Of a DNA stretch of 64,000 nucleotides, positions 8,901-63,684 are shown piece after piece; positions within the stretch are counted from its first letter, which is position 1, and every line of letters starts with the position of its first letter. The position numbers were made by a program, and so were the translations under genes. The notes beneath the pieces are model-generated. The model made no database searches. It was not told the DNA's origin and was given only the letters and a program-made list of their open reading frames with translations. Source of the DNA: an uncultured Candidatus Saccharibacteria bacterium (GTDB lineage: Bacteria; Patescibacteriota; Minisyncoccia; 1-14-0-10-42-19); NCBI GenBank assembly GCA_964362625.1, contig CAYIFA010000001.1, positions 2,994 through 66,993 on the forward strand, written 5' to 3'.

Positions 8901-10085
8901 TTACTTTTTCGCGAACTCTCGCAGGGTGCTGACAATCGCGCGGAGCGCGACGCCTTTTTCTGTTGGTTTTGGATAAAGCTGTTCTTGCTTTACCCTAAGT
9001 TCGCGGCACAAGACATTTCTCTGTTCTAGCAAATCAATAACGCTGTTAGCGATATATTGCGGTTCACCGCCAACATAGGAGGTAACTCCTTCTTCGACCA
9101 ATTCCCACTTGCCGCCAGAAACGCCCTTGAGTCGGACGCTTGTGGTAACATTTAAAAGGCTGATGACCGGCTTACGCTGGCAGACGGCCTCGATTTCAGT
9201 AGTAGAGGCAGGACCTATCAGTAAATCGCAGCCGGGAATCAAATCGGAAATTGAAACCTCTTTTGCTGATATTACTCTCGCCGGAATAGCATTCCATTTC
9301 ATCAATTCTTGATAGGACTTAACTCTGGACATTTCTTCAAAAGCAGTAAAAGTTTTTTCAACTTCTTTTTCATCCAAAGCGCGATTATCAGCATCCCTAT
9401 GCTTCGCGGCGTAATCTTTAATAAAGTTCCGCATACCATCATCCATCTCGACACGATCCCCTGGATGTCGGCTGAAAACCAATTGCCACTTACGTCGCCC
9501 AGTGACCATCCAATCCAAGTTGAAGGCCTCTAAAACACTGCTCCACATCGGCATGGTGATCGCTGATGGCTTATGCCCGACAACCAAAACAAACGTCTCA
9601 TCCAGCCGAATCCCGAGCTTGGCTCGCGACTCTTCGTATGACAGTTTCGGGAAATAAAACTCATCCCACAGCGGATTGCCGGAAGAAATAACTTTTGCTT
9701 TTAGAAAAACTTTCCGCGCCTCTCTGGCTTCCTTTTCACTCAAAACAAAAACAAAACTGGCATCAGCGCGAACACTCTCAAACCAATTACGGTTATGCGC
9801 GCAACCAAAGGTGTCGGCATAAAGTCCGTAAGGAATCCTAGCTTCGCGGGCAGCCATACACGACACAATTTCTTCTCTGGCAGTGTTGGCATTAGCCGAC
9901 ATACCTACCAGTAAAACATCTGCTGACCTTACAGCGGCAACAATCTTATCGTCAAGTACTTCAAGAGCTTTTCCTCTACCCAAAACCGGTATTACGCCGA
10001 ACTTTCCGGTTTCCAACAGCGAATCCCTGACCCTTTCGAACGCCTGCGACGGCGCGATGTCCCTAGCCACCAGCACTGCTCTCAT
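8901..10085 (-). CDS. GT-B fold glycosyltransferase-like protein (TagF/PseG-like), function unknown
   Basis: A Rossmann-like N-terminal half and a C-terminal GT-B motif (GPASTTEIEAVCQRKPVISL) are present, together with VLVVGHKPS and SRHPGD motifs reminiscent of the TagF family. It sits at the head of the neuC operon. Confidence 0.4.
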   Translation of the reverse strand: MRAVLVARDIAPSQAFERVRDSLLETGKFGVIPVLGRGKALEVLDDKIVAAVRSADVLLVGMSANANTAREEIVSCMAAREARIPYGLYADTFGCAHNRNWFESVRADASFVFVLSEKEAREARKVFLKAKVISSGNPLWDEFYFPKLSYEESRAKLGIRLDETFVLVVGHKPSAITMPMWSSVLEAFNLDWMVTGRRKWQLVFSRHPGDRVEMDDGMRNFIKDYAAKHRDADNRALDEKEVEKTFTAFEEMSRVKSYQELMKWNAIPARVISAKEVSISDLIPGCDLLIGPASTTEIEAVCQRKPVISLLNVTTSVRLKGVSGGKWELVEEGVTSYVGGEPQYIANSVIDLLEQRNVLCRELRVKQEQLYPKPTEKGVALRAIVSTLREFAKK

Positions 10086-10131
10086 CAGCTAACTCTCCTT
10101 TTTGATTTTCAACTCCGCTAGTATTATACCC

Positions 10132-10187
10132 AAAACAAAAGCCCCGTCAAGATTTGGCGGGGCGCTTACACTTCGGAAGTGTAAAGT
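10132..10187 (-). terminator. Tandem hairpins 3' of the Gfo/Idh/MocA gene (stop-proximal palindrome plus rho-independent terminator)
   Basis: A 9-bp palindrome (cttacacttcggaagtgtaag) overlaps the stop codon. A gccccg...cggggc hairpin follows, with an aaaacaaaa run on the plus strand (U-run on minus). Confidence 0.55.
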
Positions 10188-11311
10188 TATCCATAGTAAG
10201 CTTTATTAAGGATTCTCATTACTTCTAAACCGGAGCGGTAAGACAAAGGCGACTCGCAAGGATTAGTTGCTTTAAGCAGTGAATCGTAATGCTGGACTTC
10301 GTAATAAAAATCATCTGGACGGGTTTTAGGGAAAATCTCAACAACCTTCCGATTTTCTGTTTCGTACTTAACAACATCACCAGCCGGGTCGCCATTACAA
10401 TGCCATTCGAGCCAACCTTTTGTCCCTTGAACCCGCGCCCACTTGCGCGGCGGTTTGGTAACGACGTCCTGAGTTACATGCCCCACTCTTCCTTTGTTCA
10501 TCTGCATTATAAAATGGGCAATCCGGTCATATTCCACACGCTGCGATCCGGCTAAATCACTTACTACATTCAATTTACGTACCAAGTCGCAAAGTCCATA
10601 GCTTTCACCCGGCCACCACCATGCCCATGAGGCCAATTTCAGAAACAAATGCAAAGCGTGAGAATGCTCGTTGCCCGCTCCTCCGCCGCGGCGCCAATAG
10701 CCCAGATAGCTATCCTGCAGCCCAGATAGCCACGGATGCGCTTTAAAAGCCCCTTCCCAGTGCTCACGAAATTCAACGTCAATGGTTAAGATCTCACCAA
10801 ACTCTCCGCCATCACCCTTTCTCTCTTCAATCCGATTTTCATTAAGAAGATCGGCAACACGACGAATGCTGTTCGAAACCGCGTGATTGTAACCAACTGT
10901 TACAATCGTATCCGGATACTTTTTCATTTCGGCTTCAAATTCGGCAACACCTGTGAGGTTCGGAGTGCAGAGTGGTTTTTCTAGGTGCAGGAGTCTTGGG
11001 TTTTTCTTGATTTCTTCAATCGCCAGCTTCATCCGCACATCCGGAGGAGTAGTGATCATGATGATATCGAATCTATCAGGAATCGCATCTCCAGTCCTGT
11101 AGTCCTCAAATTGCGATGCGCCGCCAACCCCATCTGACAAAAATAGCCCTATCGTAAGATCAACTATTTGATAGCGGTCACTATAAATCCGGCGAAAACG
11201 ATCCAAAGCGCGTACACTCGTATCTACCACGGAAACCCGCCAGCCCATCCTGCAACACGCTTGCGCCAAATGGATCCCGGCCGAACCAGCCCCGATGATT
11301 TTTACGTTCAC
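10187..11311 (-). CDS. Gfo/Idh/MocA family NAD(P)-dependent sugar oxidoreductase
   Basis: It has a Rossmann motif (MNVKIIGAGSAGIH) and the family EKP motif (LHLEKPLC). Confidence 0.75.
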   Translation of the reverse strand: MNVKIIGAGSAGIHLAQACCRMGWRVSVVDTSVRALDRFRRIYSDRYQIVDLTIGLFLSDGVGGASQFEDYRTGDAIPDRFDIIMITTPPDVRMKLAIEEIKKNPRLLHLEKPLCTPNLTGVAEFEAEMKKYPDTIVTVGYNHAVSNSIRRVADLLNENRIEERKGDGGEFGEILTIDVEFREHWEGAFKAHPWLSGLQDSYLGYWRRGGGAGNEHSHALHLFLKLASWAWWWPGESYGLCDLVRKLNVVSDLAGSQRVEYDRIAHFIMQMNKGRVGHVTQDVVTKPPRKWARVQGTKGWLEWHCNGDPAGDVVKYETENRKVVEIFPKTRPDDFYYEVQHYDSLLKATNPCESPLSYRSGLEVMRILNKAYYG

Positions 11312-12023: not shown

Positions 12024-13568
12024 TTAGTCAAACTGATGCCGGCCCCAGTTTAATAAATAGGTTTTCCTGAAATCCCGCGGGAGCTTTGAAATTGCTTTAT
12101 CGGCATAGTAAGAATCATCGGGATGATTGGTAGTAGAAATTTCTTCAAAAATAACCCCGGTGTCACTGCCGAAAGCATGCACTATGCCGCGCGGCACCCA
12201 CAATGAATCACCCGGTTCCAAAACTTTTTGCCGGTCGTCGATATCAACTTTCATAACCCCGCTTAAAACATGAAAAGTTTCATCTTTTTTCATGTGGTAG
12301 TGCGCCGGGTTATATTGACCGGCTAATTGCACAACAATTTTTTTGGCGTATTCGCGATTAAAACAAGTGATTAAAGTACAGCCGGCTTTATGAAAATTCT
12401 CTACTCCATAATGATGCGAGAGTTCCACTTGAAAATCATGGCCCAATGGAACTTTGGCCGTATTAAGCATGCCCTTTATCGAATGGATGGCGTGATAAAT
12501 TATTTCTTTTTTCTCCGGAACATCCGATCGAGTTATGCCCGCGATGGCCTCTTTCGGCAGATAATCCTTATCAGCCAACATCCCATCCCTCCACCGGCCG
12601 CTTACCAACTGGCCGCCTTGCAAAGGCATGGCAAAAAATACATCCGAGCGGTCAATGATTGTTCCGGCCTCAATCCGGCGTTTGGCGTAAACCCCACGCA
12701 TTAGGGACCTGAGGTCGCTTGCTTCTTCTTCAGAAATGCTTCGCTCACCAGCTTCATGCCCGCATGCCTTAACTGCTTCTTTATACGAGGCGACCCAAGC
12801 GTCCACTTGTTCGGGAGACGCTGAATAAGCGTTCAATTTTATGCCGTCAGCCGGGACTCCAACATGCTTTTCAAAAATCCGCGCGCCTTTAGCGTAAGCA
12901 AGACCGACGAGCGACGTATTTGATGGCTCTTCATGCGTTGAAAAGCCAATAGTCAATCCGGGATAACGGCTGCGTAAAATTCCAATCTGATTTAAATGCG
13001 CTTTATCGTTGGTCATCGGATAAATTGAAACACAGTGCATAAGCGCGAAGTGCACCGCGCGTTTTTGGAAAAAGCTAACGATTTTATCAATATCTTTGAC
13101 CGTAAGTCCGCCGGTTGAAATAATTACCGGCCTGCCGGTATCAGCAACCCGCTCCAACAACGGAAAATCTAGGGCTGAACAGCTGCCGATCTTTATTATC
13201 TCAATACCCAGGCGCATGATGCGGTCAACCGACAGTTCGTCAAACGGCGTGCACATCGAAATCAAGCCGAGTTTTTTTGTTTCGGCGACCAATTCGGCGA
13301 ATTGCTCCTCGCTCATCCGCGTAGATAAAAATCTCGGGATATGCTTAATATCTTTGGACTCGCGGAAATCCGGATGAATAAAAGTATCCAGATCTCGAAA
13401 CTGCAGTTTCACTGCCGCGCGAATATTGTGCCTAGAAGCAATATCGGCCATGGCATTAATAATGCGCTGGCCATGCTCTACCGAACCTTGGTGATTATTG
13501 GCCATTTCGAAGACAAATAGATTTTTGAAATCAAATTGTGGCATGGAAATATTGTAAGATAAGGGCAT
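12024..13568 (-). CDS. NeuB-family synthase, paralog 2, with SAF domain and an extra C-terminal cupin domain
   Basis: A NeuB-like TIM barrel (FVFEMANNHQGS) and a SAF region are present. The C-terminal 150 aa carry cupin motifs (NPAHYHMKKDETFHVLSG ... GDSLWVPRGIVHAF). Total length is 514 aa. Confidence 0.8.
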   Translation of the reverse strand: MPLSYNISMPQFDFKNLFVFEMANNHQGSVEHGQRIINAMADIASRHNIRAAVKLQFRDLDTFIHPDFRESKDIKHIPRFLSTRMSEEQFAELVAETKKLGLISMCTPFDELSVDRIMRLGIEIIKIGSCSALDFPLLERVADTGRPVIISTGGLTVKDIDKIVSFFQKRAVHFALMHCVSIYPMTNDKAHLNQIGILRSRYPGLTIGFSTHEEPSNTSLVGLAYAKGARIFEKHVGVPADGIKLNAYSASPEQVDAWVASYKEAVKACGHEAGERSISEEEASDLRSLMRGVYAKRRIEAGTIIDRSDVFFAMPLQGGQLVSGRWRDGMLADKDYLPKEAIAGITRSDVPEKKEIIYHAIHSIKGMLNTAKVPLGHDFQVELSHHYGVENFHKAGCTLITCFNREYAKKIVVQLAGQYNPAHYHMKKDETFHVLSGVMKVDIDDRQKVLEPGDSLWVPRGIVHAFGSDTGVIFEEISTTNHPDDSYYADKAISKLPRDFRKTYLLNWGRHQFD

Positions 13569-17550: not shown

Positions 17551-18633
17551 TCAAGACCAAACAATATCTTCGTGCTTTATAACACCATCTTCGGCAATGT
17601 CGGCCTTGGCGGTTTTCCCTACTATCTCGCCAAGCATTCGTGGCTTTAAGCCATAACCCGGGCTTTTGCAGGTGAGCATTTCGGCGGTTATTTTGGCGCC
17701 GGCCGGAATCCGGGTTTTCGCGACAATGCTTTTGGAGTGTTTGTCGCGCGTCGGTTTTTCAACGTCAAAAAGAAACTTGCCGTATTGGCCCATGGCCTTT
17801 TCAATCCGGCGGGTAGACACCACCATGTGCTTGAATTCCACTGGATCAACGCTAACCGTAGCATGATCCGGACCCGGCAGATTTTTATCGAGGGTAATAT
17901 GGCGTTCAACGGTTTTCGCGCCAAGGGTAATTGCGGCAAGTGTCGGCAAAAATCCTTTTTCGTGACCAGAATATCCAATTGGCAGTGGATTATATCGTTC
18001 TCTTAAAAAGGGGATGGTGGCTAAATTCAAATATTCATCCAAGGTCGGGTAAACCGAAACGCAATGTTTTATGATCAGCTGGTTATTATGCTTTAGAATC
18101 GTCTCGACTCCTTCATCTAGCTCCTCCAAAGAATGCATGCCGGTTGATAAAATCATTGGCTTGCCTTTTTTGGCCACATGTTCCAGGAGCGGTAAATTTG
18201 AAACGTCGAATGAAGCAATTTTATAAACATCCATCCCGACTTCTTCCAAGAAATCTGCGCTTTTTTTATCAAATGGAGTCGCGAAAAATATTGTGCCGAG
18301 CTTTTGCGCGTGTTCTTTGAGTTTCAAAAAATTATCCATATCCAACTCCAGGGCCTTCCGATACTCGCCATAGGTTTTGCCGAAAATCTGGTCCTTAGTT
18401 TGTTCTTTATTTTGAAGTTCTTTAGCAAAGACTTCGTCAATAAAACGCTTTTGAAATTTCACCGCATCAGCACCGGCTTTTACCGCCTCTTCAATGGTGC
18501 GTTTCGCCAAGAAATAGTCGCCATTGTGGTTATTCCCGATTTCAGCAATAAAAAATACCGGCTCGCCTTCGCCGACAAAGCGACCTCCAATCTTCACTTT
18601 CCGCGGCAAATCCTTAAATTTGTCTCGCAACAT
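17551..18633 (-). CDS. NeuB-family synthase, paralog 3
   Basis: FFIAEIGNNHNGD and KFQK motifs plus a C-terminal SAF domain are present. Length is 360 aa. Confidence 0.85.
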   Translation of the reverse strand: MLRDKFKDLPRKVKIGGRFVGEGEPVFFIAEIGNNHNGDYFLAKRTIEEAVKAGADAVKFQKRFIDEVFAKELQNKEQTKDQIFGKTYGEYRKALELDMDNFLKLKEHAQKLGTIFFATPFDKKSADFLEEVGMDVYKIASFDVSNLPLLEHVAKKGKPMILSTGMHSLEELDEGVETILKHNNQLIIKHCVSVYPTLDEYLNLATIPFLRERYNPLPIGYSGHEKGFLPTLAAITLGAKTVERHITLDKNLPGPDHATVSVDPVEFKHMVVSTRRIEKAMGQYGKFLFDVEKPTRDKHSKSIVAKTRIPAGAKITAEMLTCKSPGYGLKPRMLGEIVGKTAKADIAEDGVIKHEDIVWS

Positions 18634-53246: not shown

Positions 53247-53876
53247 TTGCATAATTTTACGGAAAATACAATGATGGTGATGATGCCAAGATCGCGAACA
53301 AGCAAAAATAAATATATGGTACTGCTTTGCGGCCTGCCCGGCACCGGCAAAACTATCCGCGCTCAAGAATTAAAGGATGGATTGAAAAATTTTGCAGTCA
53401 TTGACCAAAATACAATTCGCAGAAAACTGGGGATTAGGCGCATGCCGAAAACCCAAGAAGAAACCCTGCGCGCAGTCGATAGAACTGCGGCGCGATTCTT
53501 AAATAAGAACGCGAGTGTGATTATAGACAGCGTTAACCGTCACACTTTCCGCCGCCAGCAATTATACGGCGTTGCTTCGGCGTGCGACGCGCGCGTAATT
53601 ACCCTTGAAATAATTTGCCCGGAAAAAACCGCAAAATTCAGAATGCGCAAAAGGGGGAAATCAGACGGCTTGTTGTCCGATCCAAATAACACGAAGGTTT
53701 ATGACAAGATTAAAAAACTTTGGGAAGACGTAAAAATAGATTTTAGGTATCCGGGCGAAGACCATGTTTCTTACGCCCAATTTAATAGCGGCAAGCAAAA
53801 ATTTATTCCAGTAATTGTCCGACCGGAAGATAAAAAAATGTTAAGAACAATAGCAGAAATTCTGGAAGCCAAGTGA
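53247..53876 (+). CDS. P-loop kinase (AAA_33/zeta-toxin-like small-molecule kinase)
   Basis: A Walker A motif (LLCGLPGTGKT) is present. The start may be an internal Met near 53316. Confidence 0.45.
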   Translation: MHNFTENTMMVMMPRSRTSKNKYMVLLCGLPGTGKTIRAQELKDGLKNFAVIDQNTIRRKLGIRRMPKTQEETLRAVDRTAARFLNKNASVIIDSVNRHTFRRQQLYGVASACDARVITLEIICPEKTAKFRMRKRGKSDGLLSDPNNTKVYDKIKKLWEDVKIDFRYPGEDHVSYAQFNSGKQKFIPVIVRPEDKKMLRTIAEILEAK

Positions 53877-53910: not shown

Positions 53911-55800
53911 TTAGATTCTCAACATTTCTTTAACTTTTTTACAAATTTTTTCTTCTGTTGGCGGAAGGTTATCAAGATGCGGGGCAAAACCGGCGGCCCG
54001 CTCTTCAAGGCACAAAACTTCAATGTCGCTCGATCCGCTTTCGCGCATCAAATCATAAGCGACACACTTTGCGACACCGTTTTCAAAATCACCGTCAAGC
54101 ACCAACCCTCGATCGTGCGACCTAAACAAAGCATCTAACATGTCTTCTGTAGCCTCAAACGGTTTAAGCCATAAAAGGTGGACCAAATTACATTTAATCC
54201 CATCTCTCCCAAGGGTCTTCACGGCTTCGATAGCATTAAGCCGCGTAGAAGAAATCGCAAAAATAGTAACTTCGGCATGCTCATGAATAATATCGTCCAT
54301 TTCATAGTCAATCGGAAAACTGCGGCGATGTTCGCTCGAATACACCGGAACATCATGACTCATGAACCGATCCCAAACCTCGCGATATTCTCCGGGTGTC
54401 ATTGGAGCGGCAACGGCTACGCCCGGCATCCTAGTGTAAATGCCGTGATGACTGCCGGATGCTACCGGACCAATTGCGCCGTCCATCGCGATTGAACGAA
54501 TAAACACCGGGCATGAAACCCCCCACATATCTTTTGACTTGGCCGCGTAGTTCAAAATGAACGGGGCGTTAAACCACTGGAATCCCTGATAGCGGACAAT
54601 ATAAATAGGTCGGCGTCCGGCTATTTCTCTGCCATCAACAAATTTCGGCAAACTATGACCAACCGCGATTCCTCCGCCGGCCACATCAGCCATGGAAAGT
54701 TCAGTCAAGCCATCTTTTTCGGTAAGCCCTGGGACGGTTCCGCCGACCCAACCAACCGCGGTCAAACACTGCCCAAGCGCGACACCGCCGTTTTTAAGAT
54801 GCTCGCGCGTAATACTGCGTATTGTCTCGGCTACGGTTAGACTATAGTGACTTGACGTTTGCACTTGCTTGATTTTATGGGTTTGACGGTAATTAATGGC
54901 ATCAGGCGCTACATTCTCTAATTCATCTTTCCACAATTGCATAGCCAAAGTTTCCGCTTCACCTTCAAGCTCTTTCGCTGACCCGGCCAAACCGAGACGA
55001 TGCATTTCTTCCTTAACCAATTCAAACCTATCCCACTCCGGCGGACCATCGTTACCTGTGCCGTTATGCCACAGATGACGAACAACATGGATATTCATGA
55101 ACGCCGGCAGACCTTCAGCAATTAAGCAGTTAGCCATATACATAATTAGCCAAGGGTCATCTGTTATATCAACCGCATACATTTTAAATGCTTGCGCGAT
55201 ATCCTTCACCAGCCAGTTCCGGCGAACTTCAACTTTAGTAAGAATTGAAAGCCCGTTGTCCATACAAACGAACAAAACCGGCGCCTTTTTATGGCTGGCG
55301 TATCCGAGAGAAGCCAACGCATAATCTTCTTCAGCTGAAGCATCGCCCATCACCGCGAGTGTCCTATCGTTATGCCCGAGCGCATATCCGACCGCTATCG
55401 GAATTTGAGTGCCCATCAAGCCGTCGTGGCCGAACATTTTTATTTGCGGGGAATGAATCGAGGCCGAACCACCCATGCCGCGAGCGCATCCGGTTTCTTT
55501 ATGCAACAGTTCATCGCGCAACGCTGCCGGATCGCCGCCATAAGCCAAATATAAATCATGCGAGCGGTGCTGGCCGAAGATTGCCGGATTTTTGAAGACA
55601 GCCGCCAACCCGGCCGCAACCGCTTCTTGTCCGACTGAAAGGTAAACCGGCATTTTTATCAATCCGGCATCATAAGCTTCTTTTACCCTCAACTCAAAAT
55701 AACGGATCCGGCACATCCGCCCGAACATTTCTAAAGAAGTTTCTTTGGAAAACTGTCGGGAGACATTAGAAATCATCCCAAAATCCTTTGATCTGGCCAT
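53911..55800 (-). CDS. Fused TPP-dependent E1 alpha-beta-like protein (single-polypeptide 2-oxoacid dehydrogenase/transketolase-like)
   Basis: A 629-aa protein with an N-terminal E1-alpha-like TPP region (GDASAEEDYALASLGYA) followed by a beta/transketolase-C-like half. Confidence 0.65.
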   Translation of the reverse strand: MARSKDFGMISNVSRQFSKETSLEMFGRMCRIRYFELRVKEAYDAGLIKMPVYLSVGQEAVAAGLAAVFKNPAIFGQHRSHDLYLAYGGDPAALRDELLHKETGCARGMGGSASIHSPQIKMFGHDGLMGTQIPIAVGYALGHNDRTLAVMGDASAEEDYALASLGYASHKKAPVLFVCMDNGLSILTKVEVRRNWLVKDIAQAFKMYAVDITDDPWLIMYMANCLIAEGLPAFMNIHVVRHLWHNGTGNDGPPEWDRFELVKEEMHRLGLAGSAKELEGEAETLAMQLWKDELENVAPDAINYRQTHKIKQVQTSSHYSLTVAETIRSITREHLKNGGVALGQCLTAVGWVGGTVPGLTEKDGLTELSMADVAGGGIAVGHSLPKFVDGREIAGRRPIYIVRYQGFQWFNAPFILNYAAKSKDMWGVSCPVFIRSIAMDGAIGPVASGSHHGIYTRMPGVAVAAPMTPGEYREVWDRFMSHDVPVYSSEHRRSFPIDYEMDDIIHEHAEVTIFAISSTRLNAIEAVKTLGRDGIKCNLVHLLWLKPFEATEDMLDALFRSHDRGLVLDGDFENGVAKCVAYDLMRESGSSDIEVLCLEERAAGFAPHLDNLPPTEEKICKKVKEMLRI

Positions 55801-55894: not shown

Positions 55895-56668
55895 TTAAAT
55901 TGTTTTGGAAACACCGGTTACTTCTTTGACGATTTTTTCCATGCTGGCGAGCAATGACTCGACGCTCGGATCAATTACTAAATCAGGATCTTTAGGCGGC
56001 TCATAAGGTTTATCCGGAGCAACCTCTCCGCCCTTTACATAAATCCAAAAGGGGTTTACGATATCGTCAATTTTCCTTCGTGAATCTTCAAATGCCGCGA
56101 TAACCGATACTACGACGTTATGCCCCTGATTGGCGAGAACCTTAGCCAGCCGGGCGACGCGAAGATAATTTTCTTCGCGATGCTCTTTGCTGTATCCGAG
56201 ATCCACAGAAATCGAAGTCCGCATTTCATCACCGTCTAATACCACTGCGTTCAATCGCTCTTTCAATAAATAAGCAAGCGAGGTTTTGCCCGAACCGGTA
56301 TTACCGGTAAGCCAGACTACGCCTTTTTTGACGCCCCTGACCTTTGTCGCCGAAATTTCTTCGGTTTGTTTATCCAAACGCACTTTCCTTATACCCCAGC
56401 CGACATCCCGCCCATAGCACACTTCGGCAATATCCGGAATCGTAATTATTTCTACGTTAGGATTATCGCCATAAATACGTTTTATGCGTCCTATTCGCTC
56501 ATCCAAGCGATAAGGATTTTTCTCGCTAAATGCCGTTTCTTTGACTGCGATAACCACGCGTTTCCCTTCGTTAAGAACCGAATCAATCAATTTCTTATGT
56601 CCGTCATGAAACGGCTGGTATCTGCCGATAAAAAGCGATGGTCCGGTTGGATTCGTTTTATTGGGCAT
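55895..56668 (-). CDS. Bifunctional protein with an N-terminal NMNAT-like nucleotidyltransferase domain fused to an adenylylsulfate (APS) kinase domain
   Basis: The N-terminus has FIGRYQPFHDGH (an archaeal-NMNAT-like HxGH motif). The C-terminus has VVWLTGNTGSGKTSLAY (P-loop) and VLDGDEMRTSISVDLGYSKEHREENYLR, which matches the APS-kinase DGDNVRHGLNKDLGFSxxDRxENIRR signature. Confidence 0.75.
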   Translation of the reverse strand: MPNKTNPTGPSLFIGRYQPFHDGHKKLIDSVLNEGKRVVIAVKETAFSEKNPYRLDERIGRIKRIYGDNPNVEIITIPDIAEVCYGRDVGWGIRKVRLDKQTEEISATKVRGVKKGVVWLTGNTGSGKTSLAYLLKERLNAVVLDGDEMRTSISVDLGYSKEHREENYLRVARLAKVLANQGHNVVVSVIAAFEDSRRKIDDIVNPFWIYVKGGEVAPDKPYEPPKDPDLVIDPSVESLLASMEKIVKEVTGVSKTI

Positions 56669-56672
56669 ATAT

Positions 56673-57626
56673 TTATTCGAGTGCGCAGTCTTTTAAACTT
56701 AAATTAAAATCGTTCATTCTCTTTTCTACTCTTTCCAGGTCCGTCTGATTAAAAACAGCTTTCCATTTCCCCACTGCGCCGCCGCGGATTTGGGTGTCGC
56801 CGGGCCTGGCACGATCATTGGCTAAGCTCGTTCCTAAATTATGTTCCGCGGCTTTCAAATTGCTTTGGCTGGATAATTCTAGGGCTTGCCGGACTAAATC
56901 ACGCTCGCGGTCAGATCTAGACGCAAACCCGAAATGCCGAAGCATAACTGTAAAAATTTTTTCCGGCTCACGAAGCAAATCCTCATATCTGATCATCAGA
57001 ATGTTGCCGGGAAACATTTCGCGCATCGCCTTAAAGGTAAAAAACTGCTTTATGAAAGCGTCGAGCCCCGCGGAATAAACATAATCTTTTTCGCTCTCAA
57101 AAGGCAGCTTACTGCCGGCGGCATCTTTTTTATACATAATTTGGGGGTTTTTATAATTTTCCAGACTTTTCATAAAAGACATTGCCGAATCCAACGGGTT
57201 GCGATAAATATAAACTATTTTTGAATTTCGGTTATAGCAAGGGTCAAAAACTTTTTTACGCCTGCCCTTTTGCATAATCAAATCGCCATTATCATGCACA
57301 TGCCCCTCGCCGTAAAATTCCAATTTTTCCCAAGCCGTTCGTAAATCACCATTATAATGCTCTTTAAAGCCCGGGCAAGTGGCATGCGCAATAATAAGTT
57401 TATCAAGACCCAAAGTATTCTTTATTTCCTTGCCAAATTCCCGATTTTCGGCGTAAAATTCGCGGACAAGTTCGGTGGAATCAAAAACATCTCCTTTCAA
57501 AAGTTTATGGAGAGCAAAGAAAAAACACCGGCAATACCACGTCCCCGATCTGGTAAGGGTGGCCACTACGCCGACTTTCGGCGGTTTCATCTTAAAAATT
57601 ATCTCCGAATATAAACGCTCAATCAT
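56673..57626 (-). CDS. PAPS-dependent sulfotransferase
   Basis: A 5'-PSB loop (PKVGVVATLTRSGTWY), a 3'-PB motif (IYRNPLD) and a RGGAVGKWK motif (compare RKGxxGDWK) are present. Confidence 0.8.
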   Translation of the reverse strand: MIERLYSEIIFKMKPPKVGVVATLTRSGTWYCRCFFFALHKLLKGDVFDSTELVREFYAENREFGKEIKNTLGLDKLIIAHATCPGFKEHYNGDLRTAWEKLEFYGEGHVHDNGDLIMQKGRRKKVFDPCYNRNSKIVYIYRNPLDSAMSFMKSLENYKNPQIMYKKDAAGSKLPFESEKDYVYSAGLDAFIKQFFTFKAMREMFPGNILMIRYEDLLREPEKIFTVMLRHFGFASRSDRERDLVRQALELSSQSNLKAAEHNLGTSLANDRARPGDTQIRGGAVGKWKAVFNQTDLERVEKRMNDFNLSLKDCALE

Positions 57627-58162
57627 TTATATTGACGGGGCATAAAAACAACGCCGTGCGTTTCAAGAACCTTTATGCCGAGTTTTTCACCCTTGGCCCA
57701 AGTGAGTTTCATCAACTTATCAAATTTTTCGGCGTCATGATTTACGTCAGAATATAAATCCTCTTTATCAAACATAATTGCGCCGACTCCAGTCGCGGAC
57801 ACGATATTTTCCAAATTCAAAATTCCGCGCTCGGTCTCGATTTTTGGAACAATTTCAATATGATTCGGGAGCATCTTTTTTATTTCATTAATGCTTTCCG
57901 GTTCTTCCACATTTGAAACCGCGAAATATTTGACGTGCGGAAATTGATGGGCGACGGCAATCGTCTCCTCCAAACTAATCTTGGGCTTAGGCGGCTTAGT
58001 CCGGCCCTGCGGATAATCAAGGTAAATATCATGCTTGACTTTATTTAACACTCCGCGGAGCTCATCTAAAGAATCTAACCACGCGACATTAACCCGCGCC
58101 ACCATATGCTTGGGAAACTCTACATCCATTTTATCAAGCAAGTAATGAGATATGATTAACAT
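57623..58162 (-). CDS. Hypothetical protein with a pyruvate-kinase-barrel/HpcH-HpaI aldolase-like motif
   Basis: The stretch VPKIETERGILNLENI...GAIMFDKEDL resembles the PK/HpcH signature (IENQEG...DGIMVARGDLG). The assignment is weak. Confidence 0.3.
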   Translation of the reverse strand: MLIISHYLLDKMDVEFPKHMVARVNVAWLDSLDELRGVLNKVKHDIYLDYPQGRTKPPKPKISLEETIAVAHQFPHVKYFAVSNVEEPESINEIKKMLPNHIEIVPKIETERGILNLENIVSATGVGAIMFDKEDLYSDVNHDAEKFDKLMKLTWAKGEKLGIKVLETHGVVFMPRQYK

Positions 58163-62005: not shown

Positions 62006-63169
62006 TCATAATAATTTTACGCTATTAACTACGCCGCAAATAAATAAAACGTCTTTCTCGCTCATTGATTCATTGTTTGGCAGAAAAAACCCGGTGGAGT
62101 GCACGCGGTCCGAAACCGGATGATGAAACTTTCCATATCGCTCATACCAAAACGGATGTAGCCCCAAATTGCCTGCCGAGAAAAGCCGAGTTTCAATGCC
62201 GCTTTTCACCAATGCCCTTACGATATTTTTACGATGTTCTGGATTTTTTGCAAGAGCGCCGAAAGAAATGCTTACTGGACGTGCCTCATTCGGCCATTGC
62301 TGAAAATCAACGGTTTTTAGATTTTTAGCGTATAGCAAATGGTTTTGATGGCGGATTTTCATAACGCGGTCGGCTTTTTTCATCATTCGAAGTCCGAGAA
62401 AAGCGTTAACATCGGTTGACCGCAAATTAAAGCCAGGAACAAAAAAAGTGAAAGGCTGGTGAAATTCATCTACTTTATGCTTGCGCATATAAGCAGAACG
62501 AACTCCTGGCGGCAAGTCCTTGCCCCAACCATGACTGCGAAGCATTAATAGCAGATGATATAAATCTTTGTTGCTGGTATTAACCATCCCGCCCTCAATC
62601 GTTGATAATTGATGGCCGAAATAAAAAGAAAAAGTGGACATGTCAGAAAACGCGCCGATTTTTTTGCCGCCGTATTCGGCGCCTAGCGCCGCGCAAGCAT
62701 CTTCAATAAGCATAAACCCATATTTTTTCTGGAGAGCTTTCATCACACGCATATGCGTCGGCACCCCAAGTACCTGCACTAACACGACGACCCCCGGTTT
62801 ATGTTTTTTTAATAAGCCCTCCAATTCCGTTAAATCCAAACCAAGACTATCCTTGTCCGCGCCGCACATTACCGGCTCGAACCCAAACTGGATAAATGGA
62901 GCAATGGTCGTTACCCAGCCGACCGAAGGCACGATTACTTTTTTATTTTTCAATTTGCCGGAAAGCAATGCCGCATACGCCGCGAGCAGATTGGCCGATG
63001 AGCCGGAATTACAAAAAACCGCGTATTTAGACCCAATCCAATCCGCCCACTTTTTTTCAAATTCTAATGTGAGCCCACCTTTGGTCAGCTGATTGTTGCC
63101 ATCGAGCCACTGTTTGAGCGCTAGAATGTCGGATCTATCTATTATATTTTTCGCTAGCTTGTACTTCAT
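62006..63169 (-). CDS. DegT/DnrJ/EryC1 family PMP-dependent NDP-4-keto-6-deoxyhexose 3-dehydratase (ColD/RfbH-E1-like)
   Basis: An RfbH-like N-terminus (LTKGGLTLEFEKKWADWIGSKYAVFCNSGSSANL) is present. In FSFYFGHQLSTIEGG, His replaces the usual PLP-binding Lys, as in ColD and the E1 dehydrase. Confidence 0.75.
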   Translation of the reverse strand: MKYKLAKNIIDRSDILALKQWLDGNNQLTKGGLTLEFEKKWADWIGSKYAVFCNSGSSANLLAAYAALLSGKLKNKKVIVPSVGWVTTIAPFIQFGFEPVMCGADKDSLGLDLTELEGLLKKHKPGVVVLVQVLGVPTHMRVMKALQKKYGFMLIEDACAALGAEYGGKKIGAFSDMSTFSFYFGHQLSTIEGGMVNTSNKDLYHLLLMLRSHGWGKDLPPGVRSAYMRKHKVDEFHQPFTFFVPGFNLRSTDVNAFLGLRMMKKADRVMKIRHQNHLLYAKNLKTVDFQQWPNEARPVSISFGALAKNPEHRKNIVRALVKSGIETRLFSAGNLGLHPFWYERYGKFHHPVSDRVHSTGFFLPNNESMSEKDVLFICGVVNSVKLL

Positions 63170-63684
63170 GCCAATTTTTTTATTTTTTCAACAAGTTTAG
63201 TTGTCGAGACTCCTTCGAATTGGGCGGGGCAAGTTCGTTTCAGGACTTCCAGTTTTATGCCATACTTATCTGCCAACTCACGGCGCGCCGTAATTCCGAG
63301 GACATCGTCATTAATAGCGTAAACATCCGGCTTTAAATCGGCAAATGCCGTTTTAATTGCTCCGAACGGAATATCATCCGTCTCGTGGGCAACCAAGCAG
63401 TAATCAACCGGCTTTAAAGATGAAACCATTTTTAGCCGCATATGCTCATTAAAGAAAGGCCGCGAGGGACCCTTTATCTGACGTATGCTCGCATCGTCCC
63501 CAACCTGAACAACCAGGACATCTCCTAATTTTCTTGCATCCTCAAAAAAAAGAACATGTCCGGGGTGAGTCAAATCAAACACTCCGGAAACAAAAACAAT
63601 TTTTTTGTCTTTATGCTCCTGCCTGATTTCTCTAAGGTCATTATGTTGAACAATCGACATGTTATTTTTTTTCATTGGCGACAT
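63166..63684 (-). CDS. Cytidylyl/adenylyltransferase-family sugar-phosphate nucleotidyltransferase (RfaE domain II/TagD-like)
   Basis: It has IVFVSGVFDLTHPGH (HxGH), ARKLGDVLVVQV and DASIRQIKGPSRP, collinear with the HldE adenylyltransferase domain. Confidence 0.75.
   Translation of the reverse strand: MSPMKKNNMSIVQHNDLREIRQEHKDKKIVFVSGVFDLTHPGHVLFFEDARKLGDVLVVQVGDDASIRQIKGPSRPFFNEHMRLKMVSSLKPVDYCLVAHETDDIPFGAIKTAFADLKPDVYAINDDVLGITARRELADKYGIKLEVLKRTCPAQFEGVSTTKLVEKIKKLA

What the first reader, a model, noticed from the sequence alone, without database searches (positions are those of the whole stretch)
55895..57626. Sulfation module: a sulfotransferase translationally coupled to a fusion of an NMNAT-like nucleotidyltransferase and an APS kinase
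The sulfotransferase (56673..57626) has the 5'-PSB, 3'-PB and RKGxxGDWK-type motifs. Its stop lies 4 nt from the start of a protein whose C-terminal half is an unambiguous APS kinase. That protein's N-terminal roughly 100 aa form a small HxGH nucleotidyltransferase domain (GRYQPFHDGH) resembling archaeal NMN adenylyltransferase, not a canonical ATP sulfurylase. This suggests a dedicated PAPS supply for glycan sulfation. The minimal nucleotidyltransferase domain may substitute for ATP sulfurylase or activate a different substrate. Both are unusual for bacterial glycan loci.
Basis: partly seen in the sequence, partly recalled or inferred. Interest (0 to 1): 0.7.

Follow-up and report, generated by a model that had tools for sequence, protein, structure and literature searches.

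The report
Compact sulfation cassette, putative mini-sulfurylase
A sulfotransferase gene is followed directly by a gene fusing a stripped-down, NMN-adenylyltransferase-like domain to an APS kinase, and this trio recurs in phages, candidate-phyla bacteria, marine bacteria and an archaeon, so the tiny domain is probably an unrecognised way of activating sulfate, though no enzyme assay exists yet.

Summary
On the minus strand, a 317-aa PAPS-type sulfotransferase (56673..57626) ends 4 nt before a 257-aa protein (55895..56668). That protein has an N-terminal 113-aa HxGH/ISxTxxR nucleotidyltransferase and a C-terminal APS-kinase-family domain.

- **The kinase is atypical.** It lacks the roughly 28-residue lid.
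- **The N-domain is closest to archaeal NMNAT.** It has lost the roughly 27-residue NMN-binding segment and the C-terminal helices. It carries an invariant family-specific YGR-x-V-G loop.
- **The mini-domain and the kinase are tightly linked.** Among 150 cluster representatives, 65 are fused to APS kinases in both domain orders, some to full canonical CysC. Of 109 loci, 97 have the kinase fused or adjacent.
- **Sulfotransferases sit next to the pair.** A Pfam-confirmed sulfotransferase lies within 1 kb in 40 of 80 viral loci, typically as ST, then a ~129-aa kinase, then a ~115-aa transferase. One lies within 10 kb in about half of the genomic loci.
- **No canonical sulfurylase is nearby.** No Sat, CysD or CysN was found in about 1.5 Mb of these loci.

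Best reading: a self-contained cassette running sulfate to APS to PAPS to sulfated glycan, with the mini-domain acting as an analogous ATP sulfurylase. The association is strong, but the chemistry is inferred. No published description was found.

The parts
57623..58162 (-). 179-aa ORF upstream of the sulfotransferase. It is a half TIM-barrel with pyruvate-kinase/HpcH-like KIE...(G/E)DL metal-site motifs. It is a conserved first gene of the three-gene unit, and its role is unknown.
   Evidence: Pfam HpcH_HpaI E 1.4e-5 and PK E 3.4e-4. PDB pyruvate kinase 2e28 matches at E 0.005, covering the KIExxxG region. Its stop overlaps the sulfotransferase ATG. The same order, 178-aa ORF then ST then fusion, occurs in L117, a relative at 77% identity.
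56673..57626 (-). PAPS-dependent sulfotransferase (317 aa). The acceptor is unknown; it is presumably a sugar or glycan of the surrounding island.
   Evidence: Pfam Sulfotransfer_1 E 9.7e-14 and Sulfotransfer_3 E 4.7e-8, both above their cut-offs. The closest solved structures are Arabidopsis SOT16/SOT18.
57537..57554 (-). 5'-phosphosulfate-binding loop TRSGTW (sulfotransferase aa 25-30).
   Evidence: Position. It aligns to PKTGTTW of SOT18.
57177..57206 (-). 3'-phosphate-binding motif YRNPLDSAMS (sulfotransferase aa 141-150).
   Evidence: Position. It aligns to YIWRDPKDTFIS of SOT16.
56760..56786 (-). RGGAVGKWK motif (sulfotransferase aa 281-289), the counterpart of RKGxxGDWK.
   Evidence: Position. 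It aligns to FRKGKVGDW of SOT16/18.
56669..56672 (-). 4-nt spacer (ATAT) between the sulfotransferase stop TAA and the ATG of the fusion gene, with no Shine-Dalgarno. This suggests translational coupling.
   Evidence: Sequence read.
56330..56668 (-). Mini HIGH-motif nucleotidyltransferase domain (fusion aa 1-113). It is the proposed sulfate adenylyltransferase.
56597..56626 (-). GRYQPFHDGH (aa 15-24), the HxGH nucleotide-binding signature.
   Evidence: Position. Invariant in alignment A3.
56396..56416 (-). YGRDVGW loop (aa 85-91). G86, R87 and G90 are invariant and specific to this family. It replaces the NMN-binding segment of NMNAT and is the candidate anion (sulfate) site.
   Evidence: G86, R87 and G90 are present in 109 of 109 sequences, independently of the pattern used to fetch the loci. 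It sits at the deletion point relative to MJ0541. It resembles the VGRDHAG loop of ATP sulfurylase only in a non-significant hhalign alignment.
56336..56356 (-). ISATKVR (aa 105-111), the second transferase signature (ISxTxxR).
   Evidence: S106 and R111 are present in 109 of 109 sequences. It aligns to YSGTEIRR of MJ0541.
55895..56329 (-). Lid-less APS-kinase-family domain (fusion aa 114-257, plus the stop codon).
   Evidence: PF01583 E 1.4e-23. PDB APS kinases match at E down to 2e-16. Retained motifs are P-loop GNTGSGKT (aa 122-129), LDGDEMR (144-150), DLGYS (156-160) and HREEN (163-167).
55994..56035 (-). KGGEVAPDKPYEPP (aa 212-225), the site where about 28 residues of the canonical APS-kinase lid (RDxKGLYKKAR...FTGI) are missing.
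   Evidence: The two-block alignment to 2yvu pairs query 108-206 with chain 5-109, and query 220-238 with chain 151-169. Supported by the multiple alignment.

Best explanation
**What it is:** a self-contained sulfation cassette. The proposed steps are:
1. The N-terminal 113-aa mini-nucleotidyltransferase uses its HxGH and ISxTxxR motifs to bind ATP. It transfers AMP onto sulfate, held by the invariant YGR-x-V-G loop and R16, giving APS and pyrophosphate. It would thus act as a minimal, analogous ATP sulfurylase.
2. The fused lid-less APS-kinase domain phosphorylates the 3'-OH of APS to PAPS. This pulls the unfavourable first step, probably by direct hand-over within the fusion.
3. The translationally coupled sulfotransferase uses PAPS to sulfate a sugar or glycan made by the surrounding island.

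**Shown:** domain identities and motifs; gene coupling; the recurrent fusion and adjacency of the three components; and the absence of canonical sulfurylase genes nearby.

**Inferred:** the sulfate-adenylylating chemistry of the mini-domain, activity of the lid-less kinase, channelling, and the acceptor.
For: **Fusion in both domain orders.** Of the best 150 representative clusters carrying the mini-domain, 65 also carry Pfam APS_kinase. At least 20 are transferase-then-kinase and at least 36 are kinase-then-transferase. Such fusions in both orders suggest the two domains work together.

**Canonical partners.** Some partners are complete canonical APS kinases with the lid. Examples are P0121 (PF01583 positions 1-152 of 152, E 2e-57), the Asgard locus L024 and the phage locus L064. 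This anchors the pathway to APS and PAPS.

**Kinase adjacency.** In 80 IMG/VR loci the kinase is fused in 18 and adjacent in 52. In 29 genomic loci it is fused in 19 and adjacent in 8.

**Sulfotransferase adjacency.**
- A sulfotransferase homologue lies within 1 kb in 40 of 80 viral loci and within 10 kb in 48.
- Eight of ten sampled candidates, seven viral and three genomic, pass Pfam sulfotransferase cut-offs.
- All five marine-bacterial loci carry a Sulfotransfer_5 gene in an O-antigen or capsule cluster.
- A 77%-identity relative keeps the exact ORF, ST, fusion order.

**No canonical sulfurylase nearby.** No Sat, CysD or CysN was found in about 1.5 Mb of these loci or in the 64-kb window.

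**Catalytic motifs are invariant.** G86, R87, G90, S106 and R111 occur in 109 of 109 sequences.

**The acceptor site of the NMNAT ancestor is lost.**
- The NMN-binding segment (MJ0541 residues about 72-109) is deleted, and at 113 aa the domain ends where the C-terminal helices of the 168-aa NMNAT would follow.
- This fits a very small acceptor.

**The kinase keeps the residues that bind APS in characterised APS kinases.** These are LDGD-x-x-R, DLG(F/Y)S and R...N; their roles are cited from established knowledge of APS kinase structures.

Against: - No biochemical data exist for any member.
- Sequence and profile comparison places the domain with NMNAT and PPAT, not ATP sulfurylase. hhalign against a fungal ATP sulfurylase profile is not significant (probability 3-14%).
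- The D of the YGRD motif is not conserved (51 of 109).
- The model shows only three clear beta-strands, fewer than the five-stranded sheet usual for this fold (from established knowledge of the superfamily). The isolated domain may need a partner.
- The kinase lacks the lid that canonical APS kinases have.
- About half of the CPR loci and 32 of 80 viral loci have no sulfotransferase within 10 kb.
- In Xylella phage Sano the fusion sits next to a NADAR (NAD/ADP-ribose-linked) gene, with only a sub-threshold sulfotransferase-like gene nearby.
- Hosts of some carrier phages probably have their own CysDN, so a second sulfurylase would not be strictly required there.
Confidence: 0.62

Rival explanations
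1. The cassette is a sulfation module, but the mini-transferase is not the sulfurylase. It would be an obligatory accessory of the APS kinase, for example a nucleotide-binding or regulatory domain, or a structural substitute for the missing lid. APS would come from a canonical ATP sulfurylase encoded elsewhere in the cell or host.
For: - There are precedents for inactive sulfurylase-like or kinase-like domains that regulate the partner activity. One is Entamoeba APS kinase with a sulfurylase-like domain that has lost substrate binding (PMC13213808).
- The kinases paired with the mini-domain are often lid-less.
- The isolated-domain model has an incomplete sheet.
- There is no significant profile similarity to ATP sulfurylase.
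Against: - The catalytic signatures of active transferases are invariant in 109 of 109 sequences, as is a family-specific Arg. This is unusual for a pseudo-enzyme.
- The mini-domain also partners with full-length, lid-containing APS kinases, so it is not merely a lid substitute.
- No Sat or CysDN occurs in any locus.
- CPR bacteria are generally described as lacking sulfate assimilation (background knowledge, not tested here).
Confidence: 0.2
2. The fusion is an NAD-salvage enzyme of the NadR type. The N-domain would be a real NMN adenylyltransferase and the kinase a ribosylnicotinamide (or related) kinase. The neighbouring sulfotransferase would be coincidental.
For: - The closest characterised relatives of the N-domain are archaeal NMNAT and NadM.
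- CPR bacteria and phages depend on cofactor salvage (background knowledge).
- A NADAR gene lies next to the fusion in phage Sano.
Against: - The segment of NMNAT that holds NMN (about residues 72-109 of MJ0541) and the C-terminal helices are missing.
- The score against the NMNAT equivalog model is 37.8 bits against a cut-off of 181.2.
- The kinase matches 24 solved APS kinase sequences and no NadR kinase domain.
- Canonical CysC partners exist.
- Sulfotransferase adjacency in 40 of 80 viral loci within 1 kb cannot be coincidence.
Confidence: 0.05
3. The pair makes a different 3'-phospho-adenylylated compound. One option is a CoA-synthase-like PPAT plus dephospho-CoA-kinase reaction. Another is an analogue of PAPS, such as a selenate- or phosphonate-derived donor.
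For: - The chemistry is formally the same: adenylyl transfer followed by 3'-phosphorylation.
Against: - Identity to PPAT is only 17%.
- The kinase retains the APS-kinase phosphosulfate-binding motifs and is not CoaE-like.
- The associated enzymes carry classical PAPS-binding motifs.
- Full canonical CysC occurs as a partner.
Confidence: 0.08

Closest known systems
Bifunctional PAPS synthases and Sat-CysC fusions (human PAPSS1/2, Aquifex aeolicus SAT/APS kinase 2gks, giant-virus Ma457)
   Same: One polypeptide combines an adenylyl-transferring domain of the HIGH-motif superfamily with an APS-kinase domain. It sits next to a sulfotransferase in a glycan cluster, as in Moumouvirus ma457/ma461 (PMC10117803).
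   Different: - Those enzymes use the ~350-400-aa PF01747 ATP-sulfurylase domain (plus PUA_2) with QxRNPxHxxH and GRDHAG motifs.
- Here the domain is 113 aa and NMNAT-like, with no PF01747 match and non-significant hhalign.
- Here the kinase also lacks the lid.
- The whole protein is 257 aa, against about 550-640 aa.
Archaeal NMN adenylyltransferase / NadM (PDB 1f9a, 1ej2, 2qjt)
   Same: - It shares GRxQPFHxGH, NP(F/Y)xxxER and (I/Y)S(A/G)TxxR.
   Different: - The window domain has a deletion of about 27 residues covering the NMN-binding region and lacks the C-terminal helical part.
- It has an invariant YGR-x-V-G loop instead.
- It is never found with a Nudix domain here; it is found with APS kinase and sulfotransferase.
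Dedicated sulfate-activation plus sulfotransferase sets, such as rhizobial NodP/NodQ with NodH and mycobacterial CysDNC with Stf enzymes (from established knowledge)
   Same: The logic is the same: a private PAPS supply encoded beside the sulfotransferase that modifies a glycan or glycolipid.
   Different: Those sets use the CysD (PP-loop) / CysN (GTPase) sulfurylase. No CysD or CysN relative is present in any locus examined.
Entamoeba histolytica APS kinase with an N-terminal sulfurylase-like domain (PMC13213808)
   Same: An APS kinase is fused to an extra HIGH-superfamily domain that contacts and influences the kinase.
   Different: The Entamoeba domain is full-size and sulfurylase-like, and has lost substrate binding. 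Here the domain is minimal and NMNAT-like, and all catalytic signatures are invariant.
NadR (NMNAT plus ribosylnicotinamide kinase)
   Different: The kinase here belongs to the APS-kinase family, not the NadR kinase family. The context is sulfotransferases and glycan genes.
PHROG phrog_10255 ('kinase') and GenBank 'adenylyl-sulfate kinase' / 'cytidyltransferase-like protein' annotations
   Same: These are the same protein family. The phage kinase and transferase ORFs match the two halves of phrog_10255. CPR homologues carry these names, as do phage homologues.
   Different: The annotations name only the kinase or only the generic transferase fold. None assigns a sulfate-activating role to the mini-domain or links it to the adjacent sulfotransferase.

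Membership tests
PAPS-dependent sulfotransferase (Pfam Sulfotransfer_1/3) | Profile match above the curated cut-off | tested here: met
   Sulfotransfer_1 scores 51.8 bits against a cut-off of 22. Sulfotransfer_3 scores 34 bits against 27.
PAPS-dependent sulfotransferase (Pfam Sulfotransfer_1/3) | 5'-PSB loop, 3'-PB motif (RxxxxS with RNPxD) and the C-terminal GxxGxxK motif | tested here: met
   TRSGTW at aa 25-30, YRNPLDSAMS at aa 141-150 and RGGAVGKWK at aa 281-289. They align to SOT16/18.
PAPS-dependent sulfotransferase (Pfam Sulfotransfer_1/3) | Catalytic base and sulfotransfer activity on a defined acceptor | not testable with these tools
   A candidate His lies in IAHATC (aa 79-84), but the N-terminal half is not covered by the Pfam or PDB alignments.
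APS kinase (CysC; PF01583 / TIGR00455) | Pfam profile match above the cut-off, with the P-loop | tested here: met
   PF01583 scores 84.1 bits against a cut-off of 21.1. The P-loop is GNTGSGKT at aa 122-129.
APS kinase (CysC; PF01583 / TIGR00455) | APS-binding motifs LDGDxxR, DLGFS and DRxEN | tested here: met
   LDGDEMR, DLGYS and HREEN align with E. coli CysC and P0121. The SFISP motif is changed to SVIAAF.
APS kinase (CysC; PF01583 / TIGR00455) | Mobile lid (RDxKGLYKKAR...FTGI) | tested here: not met
   About 28 residues are absent. Only profile positions 4-97 of 152 are matched.
APS kinase (CysC; PF01583 / TIGR00455) | NCBIfam equivalog score | tested here: not met
   TIGR00455 scores 80.6 bits against a cut-off of 138.7.
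HIGH-motif nucleotidyltransferase superfamily (CTP_transf_like, PF01467) | HxGH and ISxTxxR signatures on a Rossmann-like fold | tested here: met
   - PF01467 scores 38.6 bits against a cut-off of 21.
- The motifs lie at aa 21-24 and 105-111.
- Only three strands are confidently modelled.
Archaeal NMNAT / NadM (TIGR01527, PRK01153) | Equivalog score and full-length match | tested here: not met
   TIGR01527 scores 37.8 bits against a cut-off of 181.2, and the match covers only model positions 2-78 of 167.
Archaeal NMNAT / NadM (TIGR01527, PRK01153) | NMN-binding segment and C-terminal helical subdomain | tested here: not met
   The profile aligns positions 5-71 to MJ0541 4-71, and 83-105 to 110-131, so about 27 residues are missing, and the 113-aa domain ends where the C-terminal helices of the 168-aa MJ0541 would follow. 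The role of that segment in NMN binding is from published NMNAT structures, recalled rather than tested.
ATP sulfurylase, Sat type (PF01747) | Profile match, QxRNPxHxxH motif and GRDHAG loop | tested here: not met
   - There is no PF01747 or NCBIfam sulfurylase hit on the N-domain.
- The motifs are absent by regex.
- hhalign against a 38-sequence fungal ATPS core gives probability 14% and 3%.
- The 3% alignment does pair GRYQPFHDGH with QTRNPMHRAH, and YGRDVG with VGRDHA.
ATP sulfurylase, Sat type (PF01747) | Shared fold with the sulfurylase catalytic domain | tested here: inconclusive
   [not shown]
ATP sulfurylase, CysD/CysN type | PP-loop subunit plus GTPase subunit | tested here: not met
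   phmmer with E. coli CysD and CysN found no relative in the window or in the 109 loci, apart from one weak GTPase hit in L007.
NadR-type bifunctional NMNAT / ribosylnicotinamide kinase | C-terminal kinase of the NadR RNK family | tested here: not met
   The kinase region matches only APS kinases among solved structures. NadR entries match only through the transferase half.
Functional PAPS synthase (works like, not a member of) | Conversion of ATP plus sulfate to APS and then PAPS | not testable with these tools
   Inferred from fusion, adjacency and sulfotransferase co-occurrence.

The most novel reading that the evidence does not exclude
The ~110-aa mini-transferase is a third, previously unrecognised class of ATP sulfurylase, derived from an NMNAT-like ancestor by loss of the acceptor subdomain. 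Together with a reduced APS kinase of 129-150 aa, it forms the smallest known PAPS synthase. With a sulfotransferase it travels as a mobile three-gene cassette through phages, CPR bacteria, marine bacteria and archaea. This cassette lets organisms and viruses without sulfate assimilation sulfate their surface glycans or those of their hosts.
Probability: 0.55. Interest if true: 0.85.

Novelty: new variant of a known kind. Interest (0 to 1): 0.72.

Why it matters
If the mini-domain makes APS, several things follow.

- **A new class of sulfate activation.** It would add a third, very small enzyme class beside Sat and CysDN.
- **PAPS supply in reduced genomes.** It would explain how sulfotransferase-bearing CPR bacteria and phages obtain PAPS.
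- **Reinterpretation of viral 'cysC' genes.** Many viral 'cysC / adenylylsulfate kinase' auxiliary metabolic genes would be glycan-sulfation cassettes rather than sulfur-assimilation genes.
- **A biotechnology tool.** A ~250-aa, single-polypeptide PAPS synthase would be attractive for PAPS regeneration.
- **New biology to look for.** It predicts sulfated surface glycans in Patescibacteria and sulfation by phages, neither of which was found described in the papers searched.

The hypothesis can be tested directly with one recombinant protein.

Tried and rejected
**Rejected readings**
- **NadR-like NAD salvage.** Rejected because the kinase is of the APS-kinase family and the NMN site is deleted.
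- **Membership in the Sat family.**
  - Tested with hhalign against an alignment of 38 fungal ATP sulfurylase cores. The query sequence was recalled from memory and verified against PDB 1i2d and 1r6x.
  - The result was not significant.
  - The template alignment is shallow (at least 65% identity), so this is a weak negative.
- **Anti-phage defence.** PADLOC gave only P-loop-level noise.

**Searches that returned nothing or little**
- The look-up of encoding contigs with the window's own protein returned nothing. However, an identical protein, P0285, is on record from a 67,966-bp NCBI contig.
- The first jackhmmer run, seeded with the window sulfotransferase, found no relatives. Seeding with the L003 and L028 sulfotransferases was needed.
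- The full-length AlphaFold model was poor in aa 82-112. An N-domain-only model with 99 diverse sequences fixed this.
- The afdb50 fold library was unavailable. The BFVD search gave only generic cytidyltransferase-like hits.
- A search for sulfotransferase-transferase fusions among the 150 representatives found none.
- Eight literature searches found no description of this family. The library lacks most subscription journals.
Full report
**1. The observation**

Three co-directional, tightly packed genes lie on the minus strand:
- a 179-aa ORF at 57623..58162
- a 317-aa sulfotransferase at 56673..57626
- a 257-aa protein at 55895..56668

The first stop overlaps the sulfotransferase ATG as ATGA. 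The sulfotransferase stop TAA is followed by ATAT and then the ATG of the third gene, with no Shine-Dalgarno. The next gene downstream has a clear GGAGG.

The sulfotransferase passes the Pfam cut-offs for Sulfotransfer_1 and Sulfotransfer_3. It carries TRSGTW (aa 25-30), YRNPLDSAMS (aa 141-150) and RGGAVGKWK (aa 281-289). These align to the PAPS-binding motifs of Arabidopsis SOT16/18.

The 257-aa protein contains CTP_transf_like (aa 12-74, E 1.5e-9) and APS_kinase (aa 117-205, E 1.4e-23).

**2. Anatomy of the fusion**

*Kinase half*
- It matches 24 solved APS kinase sequences (E 2e-16 to 2e-8).
- It keeps the P-loop, LDGDEMR, DLGYS and HREEN.
- The alignment to PDB 2yvu is split: query 108-206 pairs with chain 5-109, and query 220-238 with chain 151-169.
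- About 28 residues, the mobile lid RDxKGLYKKAR...FTGI, are therefore missing.
- It falls below NCBIfam's CysC cut-off.

*N-terminal 113 aa*
- It has both signatures of HIGH-motif nucleotidyltransferases: GRYQPFHDGH and ISATKVR.
- Its best relatives are archaeal NMNAT MJ0541 (profile E 2.7e-14), NadM and then PPAT.
- Relative to MJ0541, about 27 residues (72-109) are missing, and the 113-aa domain ends where the C-terminal helices of the 168-aa enzyme would follow.
- From published NMNAT structures (recalled, not tested here), the missing segment holds the nicotinamide nucleotide.
- In its place is a YGRDVGW loop.

*Structure prediction*
- An AlphaFold model of the domain built on 99 diverse homologues is confident (pLDDT 91.5).
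- hhalign against a fungal ATP sulfurylase core profile is not significant.
- The domain therefore belongs to the superfamily, derives from the NMNAT branch, and is not a member of the Sat family.

**3. Who carries it**

The window protein is identical to P0285, from a 67,966-bp NCBI contig. A cluster-mate is named 'MAG: adenylyl-sulfate kinase [Patescibacteria group bacterium]'.

More than 1400 close homologues exist. The best 120 share 61-95% identity, and those that carry source names are mostly from CPR phyla (Zambryski-, Taylor-, Woese-, Niyogibacteria, Parcubacteria).

A search of 1.84 billion cluster representatives with the N-domain alone found 1236 clusters. Of the best 150:
- 39 are stand-alone proteins of 86-134 aa
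- 46 have the domain at the N-terminus
- 59 have it at the C-terminus
- 65 also contain Pfam APS_kinase, in both domain orders

P0121 has the mini-domain fused to a complete canonical APS kinase (PF01583 positions 1-152 of 152, E 2e-57). Rarer partners are methyltransferases and a sub-threshold DHH/DHHA1 domain.

**4. Genomic context**

*Species-representative genomes (26 loci) plus loci from look-ups*
- The kinase is fused in 19 and adjacent in 8 of 29 loci.
- A sulfotransferase homologue lies within 10 kb in 12-14 of 29. Two of these hits are weak.
- Five loci from marine bacteria (labelled Gammaproteobacteria, Flammeovirgaceae, Flavobacteriales and two Marinimicrobia) share a polysaccharide cluster. 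The one locus scanned (L028) carries Sulfotransfer_5, Wzz, Wzy, UDP-glucose dehydrogenase and NTP_transferase. The kinase (~155 aa) and the transferase (~112 aa) are separate genes; they overlap in four loci and lie about 5 kb apart in the fifth, L029.
- A Hodarchaeota locus has ST, then the transferase, then full-length CysC.
- The closest relative with context (77% identity, L117) keeps the exact order: 178-aa ORF, sulfotransferase, fusion.

*Viral contigs*
- In the best 80 loci the kinase is fused in 18, adjacent in 52, near in 6 and absent in 4.
- A sulfotransferase homologue is within 1 kb in 40 and within 10 kb in 48.
- The typical unit is ST (~250-270 aa), kinase (~129 aa), transferase (~115 aa), with overlapping stops and starts.
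- Eight of ten sampled sulfotransferase candidates, seven of them viral, pass Pfam cut-offs.
- Locus L092 is a real phage, with tail and virion proteins. Its two small genes match the two halves of phrog_10255, which is annotated only as 'kinase'.
- Cultured phages of Xylella, Xanthomonas, Stenotrophomonas and Clavibacter carry the fusion under the names 'kinase', 'Adenylylsulfate kinase' or 'hypothetical protein'. Four Burkholderia phage records also match; their annotations were not listed.

*No canonical sulfurylase*
- No Sat, CysD or CysN was detected in the window or in about 1.5 Mb of loci.
- The methods were a profile, E. coli seed sequences and motif regular expressions.

**5. Conservation**

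Across 109 non-redundant sequences, G86, R87, G90, S106 and R111 are invariant. These positions were not part of the pattern used to fetch the loci. The HxGH block is also invariant, but for the viral loci that is partly by construction. D88 is variable (51 of 109).

**6. Mechanism**

The sulfotransferases bind a donor with a 5'-phosphosulfate and a 3'-phosphate. The cassette provides exactly one adenylyl-transferring enzyme and one APS-kinase-type enzyme, and nothing else is conserved alongside them.

The simplest reading has three steps:
1. ATP plus sulfate gives APS, made by the mini-transferase.
2. APS is converted to PAPS by the kinase.
3. PAPS is used by the sulfotransferase to make the sulfated product.

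Three features fit this reading:
- Loss of the NMN-binding subdomain fits an acceptor as small as sulfate.
- The invariant Arg-containing loop is a plausible anion site.
- Fusion or overlap with the kinase fits the need to pull the thermodynamically unfavourable sulfurylase step (established knowledge).

These three points are inference. I put about 0.6 on the mini-domain being the sulfurylase, and about 0.85 on the trio being a sulfation module.

**7. Rivals**

- **Accessory or regulatory partner of the kinase (about 0.2).** There is a precedent in Entamoeba APS kinase (PMC13213808). The invariant catalytic residues and the partnership with lid-containing kinases argue against it.
- **NadR-like NAD salvage (about 0.05).** The kinase family, the deleted NMN site and the sulfotransferase linkage contradict it. 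The NADAR neighbour in phage Sano is the only hint in its favour.
- **A different adenylylated product, CoA-like or a PAPS analogue (about 0.08).**

**8. Comparison with what is known, and novelty**

A private PAPS supply beside a sulfotransferase in a glycan locus is a known design. Examples are NodPQ/NodH, mycobacterial CysDNC/Stf, and giant viruses with a canonical 640-aa SAT/APS kinase (PMC10117803).

What is new is the enzyme proposed for the first step, together with the extreme reduction of both enzymes. Databases hold the architecture under generic names. No functional description was found in eight literature searches, within the limits of that library.

I classify it as a new variant of a known kind. 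If biochemistry confirms it, the mini-domain would be a new class of ATP sulfurylase.

**9. Setting in the window**

The whole 64 kb is one co-directional sugar-modification island. It contains:
- two NeuB genes and a UDP-GlcNAc 2-epimerase
- DegT and many SDR epimerases/dehydratases
- two B12-radical-SAM enzymes
- TPP-dependent E1/transketolase-type enzymes
- AsnB, a GHMP kinase and two Nudix genes

The sulfate acceptor is therefore probably an unusual sugar or glycan of this Patescibacteria organism. It cannot be named from sequence.

Noticed in passing
window 57623-58162 (-): A 179-aa ORF is translationally coupled to the sulfotransferase. It resembles only the second half of the pyruvate-kinase / HpcH TIM barrel (KIETERG and EDL motifs). 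The same ORF precedes ST and the fusion in a 77%-identity relative (L117), so it may be a fourth part of the module. Its role is unknown.
   Followed up: partly
window 1-64000: The entire window is one almost uniformly minus-strand sugar-modification island of a Patescibacteria MAG. It includes two NeuB genes (12024-13568, 17551-18633), UDP-GlcNAc 2-epimerase, AsnB, two B12-radical-SAM enzymes, a HemN-like rSAM, three TPP-dependent E1/transketolase-type enzymes, PhyH dioxygenase, DJ-1 and a GHMP kinase. This is unusually elaborate glycan chemistry for a reduced-genome organism.
   Followed up: partly
window 53247-53876 (+): A 209-aa KTI12/PSTK-like P-loop kinase (AAA_33 E 2e-16, with weak APS_kinase similarity at E 0.007). 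It is the only plus-strand gene in this part of the island. Its substrate is unknown.
   Followed up: no
window 53911-55800 (-): A single 629-aa polypeptide fuses the E1 alpha and beta halves of a TPP-dependent 2-oxoacid dehydrogenase-type enzyme, directly downstream of the fusion gene. A similar 616-aa gene occurs in the related locus L117. It is probably a two-carbon branch-forming sugar enzyme.
   Followed up: no
window 63166-63684 (-): A second, full-size (172 aa) CTP_transf_like protein sits next to a DegT aminotransferase. It is a conventional sugar-phosphate or heptose-type nucleotidyltransferase, distinct from the mini-domain.
   Followed up: no
L092 8813-10354; also L058-L113 (IMG/VR loci): Phage genomes carry an overlapping three-gene cassette: ST (~270 aa), mini APS-kinase-like (~129 aa) and mini-transferase (~115 aa). 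In L092 it lies among tail, virion and glycosyltransferase genes. PHROGs lists the fused form as phrog_10255 'kinase' and the ST as unknown function. Viral 'cysC' auxiliary-metabolic-gene calls may often be this cassette.
   Followed up: partly
L114 (Xylella phage Sano) 2552-4321: In cultured Casjensviridae phages the kinase-transferase fusion (gp35) is preceded by a NADAR-domain protein (gp34) and a protein with only a sub-threshold Sulfotransfer_4 match (gp33), near a MazG-like gene. This context differs from the glycan loci and is the only hint of an NAD/ADP-ribose link.
   Followed up: partly
P0134 (432 aa, metagenomic), P0150, P0151: Other fusions of the mini-transferase exist. One is with a DHH/DHHA1-like phosphoesterase; DHHA1 scores just below the Pfam cut-off, and it could be an NrnA-type pAp phosphatase. 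Others are with SAM methyltransferases.
   Followed up: partly
L024 8260-11073 (Candidatus Hodarchaeota MAG): An Asgard archaeon contig carries ST, a stand-alone mini-transferase (117 aa) and a full-length CysC-like kinase (248 aa) as consecutive overlapping genes. This shows the cassette crosses domains of life.
   Followed up: partly
L028-L032 around 10000-10800: In marine Gammaproteobacteria, Flavobacteriales and Marinimicrobia, tblastn reported one match across what are really two overlapping genes in different frames (kinase ~155 aa, then transferase ~112 aa). They lie in O-antigen/capsule clusters with a Sulfotransfer_5 gene.
   Followed up: yes
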